Shown here piece after piece: positions 39,156-64,000 of a stretch of 64,000 nucleotides of DNA. The notes below the pieces were generated by a model. It was given only the letters and a program-made list of their open reading frames with translations, had not been told where the DNA came from and made no database searches. Every line of letters starts with the position of its first letter. Positions within the stretch are counted from its first letter, which is position 1. A program made the translations under genes and the position numbers. The stretch lies in NCBI GenBank assembly GCA_964016885.1, contig OZ024741.1, positions 334,428,001-334,492,000 of the forward strand. The letters run 5' to 3'. Origin of the DNA: Eledone cirrhosa. Lineage: Eukaryota.

Positions 39156-40573
39156 CTATATACATATAATAATGATTTAACAAGGATTTTACCTAAATCA
39201 TTTAATTGATTTATGACCATTTCAAGAAAATGTTATTCCTGTGTATGACTATAGAAGTGAAATATTTGGTTGACATAGAAAGCATTGGGAAATTTGAAAC
39301 TTGAAACTTAACTCCCCATACTGCAGATAACTACATATAATTGTTTCTACTTTAGGCACAAGGCCAGCAATTACCCAGTGCATTACTGGTACTTTATTTT
39401 ATCGACCCCGTAAGGATGAAAGGCAAAGTCAAGTTGATAACTACATATGATAGTTAAATATCCTGTTGATCTGATAACTGTAACACTCATCTAAACTGAT
39501 GGTGGTCCATTCCATTTGAATATTTTCTTTCTAAAATTTTACTATTTATGTTATGGTTGTTGGTCAAAAACACTGGTCAAGGAAATATATTATCAAAACA
39601 ACCAGGTTTAGACCCCGGGGGGCCTGGGACAGTTCAGGTTTGGTGGACCCCTCATATAACAAAACAGACATACATATATATGTGTTTTGTGTCTATGTAT
39701 GTATATACTCTTTTACTCTTTTACCTGTTTCAGCCATCCGGCTGAGGCCATGCTGGGGCACCGCCCTTATATATATATATTTTTTTTTTTTTTTCACCTG
39801 GGAGTGAAAGGCCCCAGTTATTGTCACAACACCTTTCTAGGAGAGGGAAACTCAACAAAAAAAACCCTGCGGCATGGAAGCATCCGATGATGTTAACCAG
39901 TTCTCCTTTTCGGGTAGTGTTTTCGATGCTCAGAGATCGGGATTGGTCAAGTGCAAGGCCTTTCCCCACTTAAAAAACCTTCAAAGTGCAGGCATTGCTT
40001 ATTCAGGTTATATTACAGATTCATGTGGCTGGCCATAGCCTAAAAATGCACCATTTTCTGTAATCTGACAAGCAATTACAATACTCTTAGAAGAGTTTGC
40101 AGCCATCTATATATATGTAAAATGTTTGTACAAAGTTGGTATGAATATCCAAGGGTTTAGTATTATAAATATATATATATATAAACACACATAAGCAGTA
40201 GGAGTGACAGAGAGAGAAAGACAGCAGAAACTGAATAAAGAGGAAAATATTTGAATTCTTTCAAATACATCATTGATAAAAGGTAGCAAGAGCTCTGTTT
40301 GAAGTGGGTGGTCCTCCTGATAGAAGCAGCCCTTTTTGGAGAGGTAAGGGAGCTGTATGATGAGGGGGTGGGGTGGCAGGTCATTTGTCTACACTTCCCC
40401 ACCCACTGATAAATCTGGCTCTGGATCAAATATATTTTAGCTAGCTTATTAATTAATTTACAGACAGTTTATCTCAGACTACACAAGTTCTGTTAAAAAA
40501 AGTATACAAATTATGTTTTCCTATGGAAAATAAGATGCAGTATTTTTCGTCGATACTCCCATATATACATATA

Positions 40574-44172
<3,599 letters not shown>

Positions 44173-53995: not shown

Positions 53996-54179
53996 AGTAT
54001 GTATGTAAGTAAGTGCCGTACTAAGAGTGAGAAATGAAATTTCATTTCATTCTATTCCATTTTATATATATATATATATACATATATATACATATATCTA
54101 TACATATTTATATATATATATATATTTACACCACAAATACACACAAACACATATATAAATAATATAATATATAGATATA

Positions 54180-54200
54180 TTTCTACTTTTCATTTAAAGG
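54180..54200 (+). promoter_or_regulatory. Candidate splice acceptor upstream of the protocadherin ATG
   Basis: TTCTACTTTTCATTTAAAG|G lies 35 nt before the ATG, implying an upstream non-coding exon. Confidence 0.45.
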
Positions 54201-54234
54201 ATTCATAACTATTCTGAGAAACATCAACAGGAAA

Positions 54235-56643
54235 ATGTTTGCCCAGTTTTGTGCATTTTTTCTACTAGTCCATGTGTCTAAGTGTGTCGACTTTACATTC
54301 TATGTAAAAGAGGGCAGACGACCAAATACATTCATTGGAGATGTTTCGATGAATATGCAGTCAATGGACAGTGTCCCAACCACAGATATCAGTTCAACTT
54401 GGTTTAGTCTTCTTCAACATGATACAACAACTGACCACCAGCTGTTTAATATATCTCGGAATGGTAAACTGCTTACTGCTAAAACATTAGATGCTGAGAG
54501 TCTTTGCAAATATAACACAGAATGCTATAAAATGTTAGATGTGGCAGTACAGAAAAAGAAGTCTTTCCTCAAAATATTGGAAATAAAAGTTATTATACAA
54601 GACGTCAATGATCATACCCCGATATTTGCAGAAAAGCAAGTTGATATAGAATTTTCAGAGCGAGATAGTAAAGGTTCGAGTATCTCAGTTCCAAATGCAA
54701 TCGATGAAGATGTAGGAGTTCTTAATTCACAAATTACGTACCAACTAAAGAAACATTCAAATGAACCTTTTATGTTGTCAGAATCAAAAAAAGTCGATGG
54801 CACTGCGAAACTGGGAATCATTCTGGAAGACAAACTAAATCGTGAAGTCAAAGACACATATCATGTTCAAATTGTTGCAAAAGATGGAGGAACACCAACA
54901 AAGCAGAGTGTTTTAAATGTTCAGATATTTGTCACGGATGTCAATGATAATTCACCAGTTTTCAGCCAAAATATCTATAATGTTTCAATTAAAAGTTCCC
55001 ACCCGAAAAGCATCCCAGTTGTGGTTGTATCTGCAAAAGACTCAGATGCTGGTAAAAATGGTAGAATATTGTACACATTTAGTTCAAAATCTTCAGATAC
55101 GACCAACATTCCATTTGAATTAAATAAACTGACAGGTGAATTATTTTTACACGAAAAATTTACTCCAGGTAAAAAACAGACATATAAATTGTTTATTGAA
55201 GCTAAAGATGAAGGGATACCACCTTTAAGTTCCACCACGATGGTTGTGTTAACAATAAATGACCAAATGAATATAGCTCCCAAAATAGATGTAAGCTTTG
55301 CATCTGCATCAGTAAAAAATGCTGCAGCCATTTCTGAGGAAACAGAGATTGGCAGCTTTGTTGCATTTGTGAAAGTTACAGATAATGATATTGGCCCTAA
55401 TGGAGAGGTCAGCTGTGTGTTACATCATGATAAATTTAGACTCCAAAGCCTAGGTGGAAAGAAATATAAATTAACAATAAAAAGTCTGGTTGATAGAGAA
55501 ACGGAGAGAGAAATTGACATAACAATTACATGTCAAGACAGAGGTTTACCACCATTACAGACTAAGACAAATGTCTCTATCCAAGTGATGGATATTAATG
55601 ATGTAAAGCCTCAGTTTTCTAAAGATACATTCAGATTTTTGATTTATGAGAATGAGAAACCAAACTTTCCTGTTGGTTTAATCAATGCCACTGACCCCGA
55701 TCTTGGCCCTGGTGGTCAATTATCATATTCCTTATTTGCTAACAATAAATATAGACTTCCATTTTCAATAACAGATTTTGGTTTTATTTCAACTACTAAT
55801 ACACTAGATCGTGAACTTCAAAGTATCTACAGATTTAAAGTTTTAGTCAAAGACAATGGAATTCCTTCTTTAAACAACACAGCAAATATCATGGTAGAAG
55901 TAATGGATGAAAATGATAATGCTCCATATTTTATTTTTCCTCGAATTAACCCATTTCGTCTTGATGTTCATTACCATCCTCTGAATAAAAACAACATCAC
56001 TGTTTTACGAGCTTCTGATAAAGACAATCAGGAAAATGCCTTTCTCCAGTATGGAATACTAGCAGGCAATGATAGACAGTTATTTACAATTAATACTTAT
56101 ACTGGGGCTGTTTCATTCTCTCGGGTGATCTTCCAAAGAGATGCAGGGGCTTATAACATCGTGTTTGTTGTCAAGGACAGTGGTACTCCTGTTTTGTCGG
56201 CAACTACTACCCTGTCTTTGACATTGTCTGTCAGTAATAAAACAGCAACTATGCTAACTGCTCTGGATAATGAACCAACTGATCGTATACATATCAACTT
56301 AGTGATCATAATTGTCCTTGCCGCTGTTACTGTGTCGGTTGTTATGGTCATATCAATTACAATCTGTATATTACGGAGAAACAATGAAAGACACACGGAA
56401 TTCTGTGCAGAAATTGATCCTTCAAATAAAATTTTGAATGAATCAAATCAATTGAAATATTTCTGTGAAAAGTTAACTCCCCAATCAGATCCATCGATAG
56501 CTATAGTTGACGTAGGCAAGAGCAGGAGTCATATGCCAATACGGCCAAGTGAAGAGCTGCCATCAAGATATGAGACAAATCATAACAGACTAGAAGCTCC
56601 TCTTGGAATACCTTGTCAAGATACTTCTGAGATGACACAACAG
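54235..56643 (+). CDS. Protocadherin, large first coding exon (signal peptide, EC1-EC6, TM, start of cytoplasmic domain)
   Basis: Hydrophobic N-terminus. Cadherin linkers DVNDHTPIF, DVNDNSPVF, DINDVKPQF and DENDNAPYF; VDRE/LDRE and AxDxG motifs; TM INLVIIIVLAAVTVSVVMVISITICIL. Splice donor CAG|GTAAGC at 56643/56644 (the unspliced ORF runs to 56676). Confidence 0.95.
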
Positions 56644-57573
56644 GTAAGCTATTGTTTTATTTTACTTTGTCTCTAAATTAATTTATCTGGAGATATATCT
56701 TGGTTGGAATCAATTATATTTACAGCTTCACATCAGTTATCAATTTTTTTTATTTTTTTTTTACAGTTTATGTTGTTCATTGATGTAAAATAAATTAGAA
56801 GTTTAGTAGGGGAATTGCCACTATCTTAGTCATGGTGAAATATTTGTCTATGGTTGAACTAAAAATGTATTTCTTACAATTAAGATTATTCTTTTGAAAG
56901 TATTTGAAAACAACGACAACAAAAACAATACAAAACAAAACTAAAAAAAGAACAAAGCATTTTTCTATGACTGTCTAACAATTCTATTGTAATGAATAGA
57001 AATATTATTATTTAATAAAAAATATTTTATAAAATTTTAATTTAAGCATTTAGGAACAACTACAATGAAATGAAAAACAAAAAATAATTTTATCAAATAA
57101 ATGAAGTAAATTTTTCACTTTTCTTTAACTCAATTTGAAATTTAAACTTTAAGCAACTTGTAAACAGGATACATCTTGTTGTTTTTTTTTTGTTGTTGTT
57201 TTTTCTTTATCTTTTCTCCTAAAATATGTATTCTCTATTAACAATGAATTTGTATTATTTCTTACAGAAAATTTTGATTTATTCACCACTGTTGGTTTCT
57301 TAAAAATCACTCTATTAATTGTATCTCTTATAAAATGTCTCCTGTTGTAAATTACTTGCTAGTTCGAATTAATTTACATTATACTGTCACAGAAGAAAAA
57401 AAATAATAACATGAAATCAAAGTAATTAATTAATTAGTTTAAAAAAAACAGAAATGATATGAGACAGATACAATGCTATTCCATAAGTAAAGTACAGAAT
57501 TACTAAATACAATTCATTACTTTTTTTACCTTTAACATTTTAGTTAGCAACAGGTAAATTTCAAAGGAATATA

Positions 57574-58373: not shown

Positions 58374-59639
58374 CTATCAGAATCTTACATAGGAATTGAA
58401 AATAGTTTCAATGAAATAATAGAATGTATTGAAACATCTAAATAAATTCAATGACTTCAGAATATTGATTTTTATCAGTTTTTGGATAGAGAAATATTAA
58501 GGAAGCTCAATGAAGAATGCTGTTGATTTGTAGATAGAGAAATTTCAAAATATTCTTTTGACTTTGAAGATAAGAATGAAGCAGGTATAATGAGAGTAGT
58601 GAGATATCTGAGAAGCTATTTGTGAGAGTAGCTTTATTTTTCCCCATTAACCTGAAAACCCATAATTGAAAAGAAAAAAAAAACATCTTTTGAATAGGAT
58701 CAGGATGAAATCTTAGCCAATCAGTTGAATAGGTGTAGAAATTTAAATTTATTAATTATATTTTAACAATAAAATGTTTTCCTGAAAATGTTTTCTGGAA
58801 TTCATACCAAAATGTTTCAAAAGTTCCATAGAATAACCAGAGATATTATCATCTTTCATACTTATGAACAGACATTTCTACTGAATAAATATTGGAAAAA
58901 TAAATAAATAAATAATTAAATATATAAATAAATAAATATATATATAAGTAAATATATAAATAAATAAATATAAAATTTGGTAATAATTATCCATATAAAC
59001 TAATATAAATACAACTTCTCTTCTATTTTGTAAATTTCTATGAGAGTTAACCCTTAAACAGTAAGAATTAAATTGGTAAATAGTTCAGTTTCACAACTGA
59101 CTGTAAAAGTTATTGGACGATCAAGTTCACAGGTCTTGAGTTCAAATTTGTGGGGGAAAATATTTTAGAAGTTTAGTTATAGATCAACCCTGATTAAACA
59201 GATATATGGTCAAAGGGTTTCTAGCCATAACCAACCAGTTTTTGTTTAGGGATATGTAGGAGTACATTATATCTAGTATGCCCTTTTATTTTTCTAAGAC
59301 AGTAGGGTCTGGGTGTCATTTTGAAAAAGACTTAACTTCTATTTCTAGCCAGTCAAGTGATGGTGATGGATTTATCTGTTCAGGTCATGGAATTTGTTGT
59401 GTATTTGGACAATGTAGTTTCTTCTATGCCTCTGAAAGGAATATATATATATGTCATATTGACTAGATTCTAAATGTTATTGCCAGTGAGCTGGTTTCTT
59501 ATCTGGGGAAAGAGATATATTACTTATGTGTTTTTTAAAAACCAGATACAAGCAGAAACTGGGATCTTTATTTTAGGAAAGAAGATCCAATCATCAGATC
59601 TGAGCAAGGAAACAATGTTTTCATTGGTCTTCCCATTGC

Positions 59640-60750
59640 TGATATTATCTGATGATTGCAACTCCTGGCAGAAAGAGAAATCTGAAATAAAGTGTTTTGC
59701 ACAAAATGCAATGTGTCGCTCAGTCCAGGAAACAAATCTTCAACCTTATGATTAGAAGTCCAGCACCCTAACGACTGGACCATGCCCTTCTCAGTCCAGA
59801 AAACAAAACTACGACAATATGATTGGAAGTCTAATACCCTAACCATTAGGCCACACCCCATTGGTCAAGGAAACAAACCCACATCCTTATTATTGGAAGT
59901 CCAACACACTAACCACTAGGCCACACCCTACTCAGTCCAAGAAATGAAACCATGACCTTATGATTGGAAGTCCAATACGCTAACCACTAAGCCACACTCA
60001 ACCCAGTCCAGGAAAAACACACTAACCACTAAGCCATGCCTCCTCAGTCCCAGAATCGAACCTCAAGACCTTATGATTTGAAGTCCAACAGCCTCACCAT
60101 TAAGCCATGCCTCCTAAGTCCAGGAAACAAACTCACAACCTTATGAATAGAAGTCCAACACCCTAACCACTAGGCTATGCCTCAATCAGTCCAGAAAACA
60201 AACCTAAGACCTTATGATTAGAAGTTGAACATTCTAACGACTATGTCACACCACATTCAGTTCAAGAACCAAACCACAACTTTATGATTGAAAATCCAAC
60301 ATCCTAACTACTAAGCTACACCCCACTCAGTCCAGGAAACAAACCCACAACATTATGTTTAAAAGCCAACACACTAACCACAACACCACACCTTATTCAG
60401 TCTAGGAAATGATACCAAGACCTTATGATCAGGAGACCCTAAACACTAAGCCACAGCCCACTCAGACCAAGAACCAAACACACAACCTTATGATTGGATG
60501 TCCAACACCCTAACGACTAGGCCATACCGCTTTCAATCCTGGAAACAAGTCCACCACCTTATGACTGGAAGTCCAACACCCTCACCACTAAGGTCAGGAA
60601 ACACATCCTCGACCTTATGATTAGAAGTCCAACACCCCAACCATTAGGCAGGCCACATCCCACTCTGTCCAGGAAACAAACCTTTAATTGCTAGGACACA
60701 CCCTACTCAGTCCAGGAGTCCAATACCCTAAACACTAGGCCATGTGCCTT
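59640..60750 (-). repeat. Tandem array of ~16 tRNA-like SINE heads (~71-bp unit) attached to one CORE-like body
   Basis: Unit (+) CAGTCCAGGAAACAAACCCACAACCTTATGATTGGAAGTCCAACACCCTAACCACTAGGCCACACCCCACT is the reverse complement of a SINE tRNA head. CORE-like AAATAAAGTGTTTTGCACAA at ~59685-59705. Confidence 0.85.
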
Positions 60751-61248
60751 CTTTTGAGATGGTATCATATCTACATTTTTTTTTACCATAAATTAAAAAA
60801 GATATTATAAAAATATTTTGATGGCAAAGCAGTAAACACTCAAACATATTTGATGAAAATCAATATTTTATTATTCTGATATCATGTTCTATATTGATTT
60901 AACCTTTAACTTGTTTAAGGAACAAAACAAATATGATAACTACAGTTTTTGTTCATAAGTTAATGAGAGATGAAAAGACCATGAACCTGAACTTTGTAGC
61001 TGACTTTTCCAGACTGGGGAGATTGGTTCAACTGATGACCAGCTTGAACATGTGTCTCTAGGGAAATATTCTGGTTGGGTAAGGATTTGATCTCCAGGGA
61101 TTTGATCTCCAAGGAATTGTTCCAAATATTAGGAAGGAAGGGAATAGGAATGGAGTTGGGTGAGTAGAAGCAAAGAAGAGAATGAAATAAGTTCAGGGAG
61201 ATCTTACTCTGCTGGAAACATTTTTACTGTGATTATTAAGTGAAGGAA

Positions 61249-63456: not shown

Positions 63457-64000
63457 CATCATCATCATCACCGTTTTACGTCCGTTCTTCCACGCTAGCA
63501 TGGGTTAGACGGGTTGTCCTGTTGTGGGCAGTGTCTGGTCGGCTGACCATGCCTTGCTCATACAGGAACTGATCTGGCTTGATTTCTACAGCTGGATGCC
63601 CTTCCTAACACCAACCTCATTTACAGTGAGTGCTGGGTGCTTTTTCGTGGCGCCTACACGTCCACTTTACAGTGTGGGCTGGGTGCTTTTTTTGCCGTGG
63701 CACCTCCACGACCACCTTGCGGTGGGGGGGGGGGGGGCATATTGTTTATATGCTTCAGCATGTACCCATGGGAGGTCGGGTACCCTGTATTACTGCGTGA
63801 CGCCAGAAGTCACGGTCGTGTGTCATTGACTTTGAGAGGTGTAGTTGGGTAAGGTCGGCTTTTATCACCTCATCCCAAGTCATCTTGGGTCTCCCCACTC
63901 CGCGGTTTCCATCAACTTCTAGTGCTCTGCACCTTTTTATGCAGCTGTCATCCTTCATACGCATCACATGTCCATACCAGCGTAACCGCCTCTCCTGCAC
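63457..64000 (-). mobile_element. RTE subfamily B 3' end (continues beyond the window)
   Basis: [23 protein letters not shown]...GRPKMTW, followed by the UTR and (GAT)n tail. Confidence 0.9.

What the first reader, a model, noticed from the sequence alone, without database searches (positions are those of the whole stretch)
59640..60750. SINE with its tRNA-like head amplified into a ~16-unit tandem array downstream of the protocadherin splice donor
Seen: ~71-bp diverged units that on the minus strand read GGTGTGGCCTAGTGGTTAGGGTGTTGGACTTCCAATCATAAGGTTGTGGGTTTGTTTCCTGGACTG (A box mostly intact, B box mostly degenerate, TCC at the anticodon-like position). The array starts with a normal SINE 5' end at 60750 and ends in a single CORE-like body. 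Inference: a satellite born from a Pol III promoter module. It could act as a TFIIIC-binding or insulator array, or as a source of antisense tRNA-like RNAs, 3 kb downstream of the splice donor.
Basis: partly seen in the sequence, partly recalled or inferred. Interest (0 to 1): 0.72.

Follow-up and report, generated by a model that had tools for sequence, protein, structure and literature searches.

The report
Fossil SINE-head minisatellite beside protocadherin
Sixteen decayed copies of the tRNA-like front end of one small jumping element (a SINE) sit in front of its single body 3 kb past a protocadherin exon; only one copy keeps the promoter box and about 30 similar arrays lie elsewhere in this genome, so it is likely an ordinary, functionless fossil repeat.

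Summary
Observation confirmed. On the minus strand, 60751-59719 holds 16 SINE-head units (12 of 65-75 bp, 4 internally deleted), followed by one SINE body (59718-59590), 3 kb past a protocadherin donor. The regulatory reading is not supported. Only 1 of 14 scorable units keeps the B-box core, against 17 of 36 single copies of the family. A and B boxes decay as fast as the rest of the unit. Units are 74% identical, star-like and about as old as the body. About 30 other loci carry the same heads-then-body layout with other periods. Of 40 other protocadherin downstream regions, none has a long array and one has a 4-head cluster. Best reading: an old SINE-derived satellite (sSat, PMC10702118), likely amplified at DNA level soon after insertion and then frozen. 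This scan has already reported the same kind of array on other DNA of this genome. One loose end: 13 of 15 young junction types rejoin at the SINE's first ten bases. No RNA or chromatin data were available.

The parts
54235..56643 (+). Protocadherin large first coding exon (ATG to predicted donor)
   Evidence: 833-aa open frame 54175-56673, Pfam Cadherin 5 stretches E=1.3e-74, ATG and GT positions; at least 150 paralogous exons in the genome
56644..56645 (+). Predicted splice donor GT (CAG|GTAAGC)
   Evidence: sequence; inferred, no RNA data
59719..60751 (-). Tandem array of 16 SINE-head units (12 near-full, 4 internally deleted), mean pairwise identity 74%
60706..60751 (-). Unit 1: the SINE's native 5' end, with an internal deletion between two GGACT words
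   Evidence: contigs of other copies end at 60751
60043..60113 (-). Unit 11: the only unit with both an A box and a GTTCGA B-box core at tRNA-like spacing
60013..60017 (-). T5 run about 95 bases downstream of unit 11's start; would terminate a Pol III transcript
   Evidence: role inferred
59719..59789 (-). Unit 16: last head, continuous with the body
59590..59718 (-). Single SINE body: central domain shared by the six SINE groups sorted here plus the 'family A' tail, 3' end decayed; no target-site duplication recovered

Best explanation
It is one old tRNA-derived SINE insertion whose 71-bp head is repeated 16 times in front of its single body, likely by DNA-level copying errors soon after insertion, and it has since likely decayed without function. 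Steps: (1) shown: a SINE of a minority subfamily (family-B-like head, family-A tail) lies antisense to the protocadherin. (2) inferred: the founder head had picked up private changes, including the B-box A to T, before amplification. (3) inferred: a first duplication joined the G/T-rich stretch just after the B box to the G/T-rich start of the element; slippage or unequal exchange then raised the count to 16, and microhomology deletions shortened four units. (4) shown: no homogenisation or box conservation since; units are 16% from their consensus and show no sub-lineages. (5) inferred: closeness to the protocadherin is chance, helped by a high SINE density there.
For: Layout of native 5' end, heads, one body. 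Same layout at about 30 other loci with periods of 34-104 bp, three different tails and up to about 60 kb. 17 exact-motif matches with an extra head against 2012 head-plus-body matches, about 0.8% (the patterns differ slightly). Sister array L096 repeats 20 bp of its own 5' flank, including an 11-bp word also found at its 3' flank (a likely target-site duplication), which needs a DNA template. Heads within young arrays share changes from the family consensus (4 in L237, 3 in L247, 3 in L251). The window's junction motif occurs once in 3.0 Gb. Identity is flat with distance and shared-mutation clustering is at chance level, p=0.30. Unit divergence 16% vs body 12% and family-A single copies 17%. 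B-box core 1/14 vs 17/36, p=0.009. 0 of 40 paralogue regions hold a long array.
Against: No orthologous locus, RNA or chromatin data could be examined, so neutrality is inferred from sequence only. Unit 11 keeps both boxes with a T5 run downstream. One of 40 paralogues (L162) has a 4-head cluster 37 bp after its donor, against 0 of 40 random regions (1 two-head hit at the laxest cut-off); not significant, p=1.0. SINE heads in general are enriched downstream of protocadherin exons (32/40 vs 13/40 regions, p=4e-5), which is unexplained and may reflect a gene-region effect or shared descent of paralogues. 13 of 15 young junction types rejoin within positions -1 to 10 of the SINE, against 17-29% expected from position and microhomology (breakpoints called by eye; null); plain random slippage does not explain that. 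L253's three heads share no change and L238's two share only a common variant, as expected of a seed made at insertion.
Confidence: 0.8

Rival explanations
1. The first duplication was made at or through the SINE's 5' end by an RNA- or cDNA-linked step (a reverse-transcriptase jump at the end of the template, or cDNA used in local repair); only the later growth was DNA-level. Still functionless.
For: 13 of 15 young junction types rejoin at the first ten bases (binomial p at most 5e-6 under the microhomology nulls). L238 is a two-head copy joined at position 1 with no microhomology. The window array is about as old as its insertion.
Against: L096 includes flanking DNA and L250 rejoins at about position 16. 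Shared private changes in several arrays, and the founder's B-box change here, point to a lag after insertion. G/T-rich ends could favour growth rather than seeding. Breakpoints were called by eye on a small, motif-ascertained set.
Confidence: 0.2
2. The array is an exapted TFIIIC or insulator platform, or a source of antisense tRNA-like RNA acting on the protocadherin.
For: Position 3 kb after the donor; unit 11 has both boxes; TFIIIC binds B-box-bearing SINEs near neuronal genes in mouse (PMC3744447, passages); one other paralogue has a small head cluster.
Against: 1 of 14 units has the B-box core; four ordinary single SINEs in the same window have both boxes. In PMC3744447 the SINEs lacking a conserved B box did not bind Gtf3c1. 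No box conservation; absent beside 39 of 40 paralogues. Cephalopod protocadherins are whole-gene duplicates without vertebrate-type exon choice (PMC9068888, passages).
Confidence: 0.04
3. A multi-headed master SINE was retrotransposed as a whole, or the units were imported from a neighbouring array by ectopic conversion.
For: Five separate insertions at C2:396-401 Mb share a 71-bp period and junction. One diagnostic junction variant occurs only in three of them, within 0.85 Mb (18 of 18 matches), so units do seem to move locally. The window's period is also 71, and its head is nearer family B than its own tail's family.
Against: The window's junction motif is unique in the genome. The best non-self DNA matches have other periods and 66-73% identity (40 of 691 candidates scored). 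The same head-tail pairing exists in single copies (L032, L147, L254 among 36 tail-A copies). Local confinement of the variant argues against genome-wide retrotransposition.
Confidence: 0.08

Closest known systems
SINE-derived satellites (sSat1-3) of squamates, Vassetzky, Kosushkin and Ryskov 2023, PMC10702118 (parts 1-4 of 5 of the text read; supplements not opened)
   Same: Tandem units of about 70 nt and up cut from part of a tRNA-derived SINE, shorter than the SINE, with a terminal unit running on into the rest of the element. Some loci keep both termini. Short loci are heterogeneous, long ones homogeneous. sSat3Ppi2 matches the tRNA portion and is mostly in short, diverged loci.
   Different: Invertebrate genome; here the unit is almost exactly the head; this locus is interstitial (334 of 416 Mb) and near a gene rather than subtelomeric; no homogenisation.
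Tandem HCD-SINE arrays of bivalves (Scapharca broughtonii), PMC11481361 (passages read)
   Same: Molluscan tRNA-SINE tandem arrays of 4-15 units, also in introns; DNA-level recombination proposed.
   Different: Their units are at least 150 bp of SINE, in one form separated by target-site duplications; here head-only units with one body.
CORE-SINEs, including octopus OR2 (named in PMC5804259 and PMC4758252, passages read; Gilbert and Labuda 1999 not held)
   Same: tRNA head plus a central domain shared by several families that carry different tails (six groups here).
   Different: Identity with the CORE domain was not tested against a reference; the resemblance is recalled.
TFIIIC-bound SINEs and extra-TFIIIC sites (PMC3744447, passages read)
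   Same: SINE with an internal A/B-box promoter near a neuronal gene.
   Different: Those need a conserved B box; 13 of 14 units here lack the core, and no binding data exist.

Membership tests
SINE-derived satellite (sSat) | At least four tandem middle units derived from part of a SINE | tested here: met
   16 units; consensus 56/63 identical to a dispersed SINE head
SINE-derived satellite (sSat) | Parent SINE exists as dispersed single copies | tested here: met
   2920 candidates, 40 scored, for the body query; 136 single copies sorted
SINE-derived satellite (sSat) | Terminal unit extends into the rest of the SINE | tested here: met
   unit 16 runs into the body; unit 1 carries the native 5' end
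SINE-derived satellite (sSat) | Recurrent, independent origins in the genome | tested here: met
   about 30 loci, different periods, junctions and tails
SINE-derived satellite (sSat) | Subtelomeric preference (a tendency of the class) | tested here: inconclusive
   this locus is interstitial; many sister arrays lie near contig ends, no statistic run
tRNA-derived SINE | tRNA-related head with A and B boxes | tested here: met
   sister heads score 44.1 and 39.6 bits on RF00005; nearest subfamily copy L032 23 bits, below cut-off; unit consensus aligns to genomic tRNA-model hits at z up to 10
tRNA-derived SINE | Target-site duplication at this insertion | tested here: inconclusive
   none seen by eye; the scripted search mis-set this locus's ends; 3' end decayed
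CORE-SINE | [quoted passage not shown] | not testable with these tools
   no reference sequence on hand; source paper not held
tRNA gene array | Units fold as tRNA and pass tRNA finders | tested here: not met
   ARAGORN 0 genes; Rfam 0 matches at E up to 1; no cloverleaf in the MFE fold
TFIIIC/ETC insulator array | Multiple intact B boxes | tested here: not met
   1 of 14 units
TFIIIC/ETC insulator array | TFIIIC occupancy or barrier activity | not testable with these tools
   no chromatin data
Multimeric SINE retrotransposed as a unit | Dispersed copies with the same multi-head structure and junction | tested here: not met
   junction motif found once in the genome (exact matches only, so old copies could be missed)

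The most novel reading that the evidence does not exclude
Head arrays in this genome are seeded by a step tied to the SINE's own 5' end (Pol III start site or cDNA end), not by random slippage: 13 of 15 junction types rejoin at the first ten bases. The arrays then spread locally between neighbouring SINE copies. The window array would be an early, frozen product of this retrotransposon-to-satellite route, and the genome a direct test bed for how satellites are born.
Probability: 0.2. Interest if true: 0.5.

Novelty: new member of a known kind. Interest (0 to 1): 0.15.

Why it matters
As a locus it matters little: one old example of a known class, with no sign of function. If the regulatory reading were true it would offer a first cis-element for cephalopod protocadherin control, but the sequence argues against it. 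What has some value is the series: two-head copies, short arrays, a 60-kb satellite and this frozen old array from the same heads give a natural time course of satellite birth. My searches (listings seen) showed no paper describing SINE-head satellites in cephalopods; subscription journals are not covered.

Tried and rejected
ARAGORN and Rfam on the array: no tRNA. Sequencing-run search: no RNA holder listed, which is no evidence either way. Joints and loose ends come from other SINE copies and were not used, except for the element's ends. Higher-order (141-bp) structure: TRF suggests it, but identity does not rise at even distances and shared-mutation clustering is at chance level. Chimera of two SINE families: not needed, as single copies with the same head-tail pairing exist; the exact pattern found only 1. 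Search for a shared second exon among paralogues: only repeats matched, so the intron's end is unknown. Parent tRNA: not identified; only 16 RF00005 matches were returned from 63 scored candidates, and most look like one tRNA-like repeat. Look-up of earlier findings near this place: none. Literature search on template-switch head duplication gave nothing relevant in the listing. The L249 count is distorted by an indel and was not used; the L245 alignment was broken and its junction was read.

Full report
1. Observation. The minus strand from 60751 to 59719 is a tandem array. TRF gives period 71 with 68-76% matches and scores to 657 at settings 2 3 5, against at most 94 in 200 shuffles. Cutting at the end-of-head word gives 16 units: 12 of 65-75 bp and four with internal deletions. 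Unit 1 begins with the native SINE start, and contigs from other copies break off at 60751. Unit 16 runs into a single body ending near 59590. One contig in each of two runs of one sample spans the array with no difference, so it is unlikely to be an assembly artefact. Upstream on the plus strand is a protocadherin exon (Pfam Cadherin) with GT at 56644. The genome holds at least 150 such exons in clusters on C2 and C7 (150 of 917 candidates scored), the cephalopod pattern described in PMC9068888 (passages).

2. The parent element. The body query finds dispersed copies; 29 of them were aligned to a consensus. Sorting 136 single copies from all loci held at that point gave six groups that share a head and central domain but differ in tail, and 7 unassigned. 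The window's tail is group A (98/111 identical). Its head is nearer group B (56/63 vs 49/62). That pairing also occurs in single copies (L032, L147, L254 of 36 tail-A copies; also L208), so it is a minority subfamily. Two group-E-type heads pass the Rfam tRNA cut-off and L032 scores just below it; the array's own units do not register. The anticodon-like triplet differs among groups, so TCC says nothing about origin. That the central domain is CORE is recalled, not tested; octopus OR2 is listed as a CORE-SINE in PMC5804259 (passage).

3. Age and constraint. Full units are 74% identical pairwise (65-82%), flat with distance. They are 16% from their consensus, and pairs share derived states no more than column shuffles do (p=0.30). 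The body is 12% from its family consensus and group-A single copies average 17%, so amplification is about as old as the insertion. At the B-box CpG the units show TG 11, CA 2, CG 1, so the CpG was likely still intact when the array grew. Divergence in the A box (29/168) and B box (27/163) equals the rest (108/695). The invariant B-box A is T in 11, G in 2 and A in 1 of 14 units, so the founder was likely already promoter-dead. One unit in 14 has GTTCRA against 17 of 36 group-A copies (p=0.009) and 74 of 129 assigned single copies. Unit 11 has both boxes and a T5 run about 95 bases on; four ordinary SINEs in the window also have both boxes.

4. Is it special to the protocadherin? I fetched 10 kb downstream of 40 of the 150 listed paralogous exons and 40 evenly spaced control stretches. 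With a profile built on single copies, neither set had a tandem cluster. With a more sensitive profile, 1 of 40 paralogue regions had one (L162: four degenerate heads 37 bp after the donor, sense strand). Controls had none, apart from one two-head hit at the laxest cut-off; reversed sequence gave no hits. Single heads are denser after protocadherin exons (32/40 vs 13/40 regions), which raises the chance of finding an array there without implying function. Elsewhere, about 30 loci carry two or more heads in tandem (listings truncated, so a lower bound). Periods run from 34 to 104 bp, the young arrays are 90-98% homogeneous, and one spans about 60 kb on C3. None lies in the protocadherin intervals listed. 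About 0.8% of young group-B copies have an extra head (17 vs 2012).

5. Mechanism. Shown: heads repeat, the body does not; several sister arrays are flanked by short shared words that look like target-site duplications (L092, L096). L096's unit includes 20 bp of upstream flank, which needs a DNA template. Heads in L237, L247 and L251 share changes from the consensus, though some are CpG decay. A junction variant is confined to three insertions within 0.85 Mb, which fits local DNA-level transfer, an idea also put forward in earlier notes of this scan. The window's own junction motif is unique. Inferred: a first duplication joined the G/T-rich stretch after the B box to the G/T-rich start, unequal exchange or slippage multiplied it, deletions between internal repeats trimmed four units, and the array then stopped turning over. 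Against a purely random start: 13 of 15 distinct young junction types rejoin within positions -1 to 10 (called by eye; shared junctions counted once; 34-51-bp arrays left out), where the nulls give 17-29%. L253 and L238 show no clear private sharing. This keeps RNA- or Pol III-linked seeding open at about 0.2.

6. Comparison and verdict. It meets the defining features of the SINE-derived satellites of PMC10702118 (parts 1-4 of 5 read), including their short, heterogeneous loci with both termini. Tandem SINE arrays in mollusc introns are reported in PMC11481361 (passages). It fails the B-box requirement of TFIIIC-bound SINEs (PMC3744447, passages). Seven of the eight earlier notes shown for this genome describe SINE-head arrays and reach the same class (unreviewed, not counted as support; my reading was logged before seeing them). 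Verdict: real, a new member of a known kind, likely inert; interest 0.15. Expression and chromatin remain untested.

Noticed in passing
L162 = G000:C7, about 8,319,650-8,319,885 (minus strand): Four degenerate SINE heads in tandem starting 37 bp after another protocadherin's donor, in the sense direction.
   Followed up: partly
G000:C2:396.0-400.9 Mb (L091-L095, L110): Five separate SINE insertions with different flanks share a 71-bp head unit and junction (4 to about 170 copies); one junction variant occurs only in three of them within 0.85 Mb, suggesting local transfer of units.
   Followed up: partly
G000:C3:13.05-13.12 Mb and C3:371.88-371.90 Mb: Large SINE-head satellites: 82-bp unit over about 60 kb, and 70-bp unit filling both 9.9-kb stretches fetched.
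   Followed up: partly
L127-L166: SINE heads are about 2.7 times denser in the 10 kb after protocadherin exons than in evenly spaced controls (49 vs 18 in 400 kb each); 31 sense, 18 antisense.
   Followed up: partly
window 40497-43772 (+): Long open LINE frame with endonuclease, reverse transcriptase and a PHD finger after the RT domain.
   Followed up: no
window 63459 to the end and into L109: A 2.4-kb repeat 99% identical to a copy in L142, holding a 48-50-bp tandem unit (63604-63733) seen at other loci too.
   Followed up: no
L102 = G000:C18:20.81 Mb: An 86-bp head array abuts an 80-bp array made from the same SINE's tail: two satellites from one element.
   Followed up: no
L113, L115-L123: A dispersed tRNA-like repeat with variable anticodon (GGC, AGC, GAC, GTC, GGT) passes Rfam's tRNA cut-off; probably a tRNA-derived repeat family rather than tRNA genes.
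   Followed up: no
G000:C1:185.8 and 230.6 Mb, C14:31.5 Mb, C25:1.5 and 3.8 Mb: 34-36-bp arrays of the A-box half of the same head, like the deleted unit 1 of the window array.
   Followed up: partly
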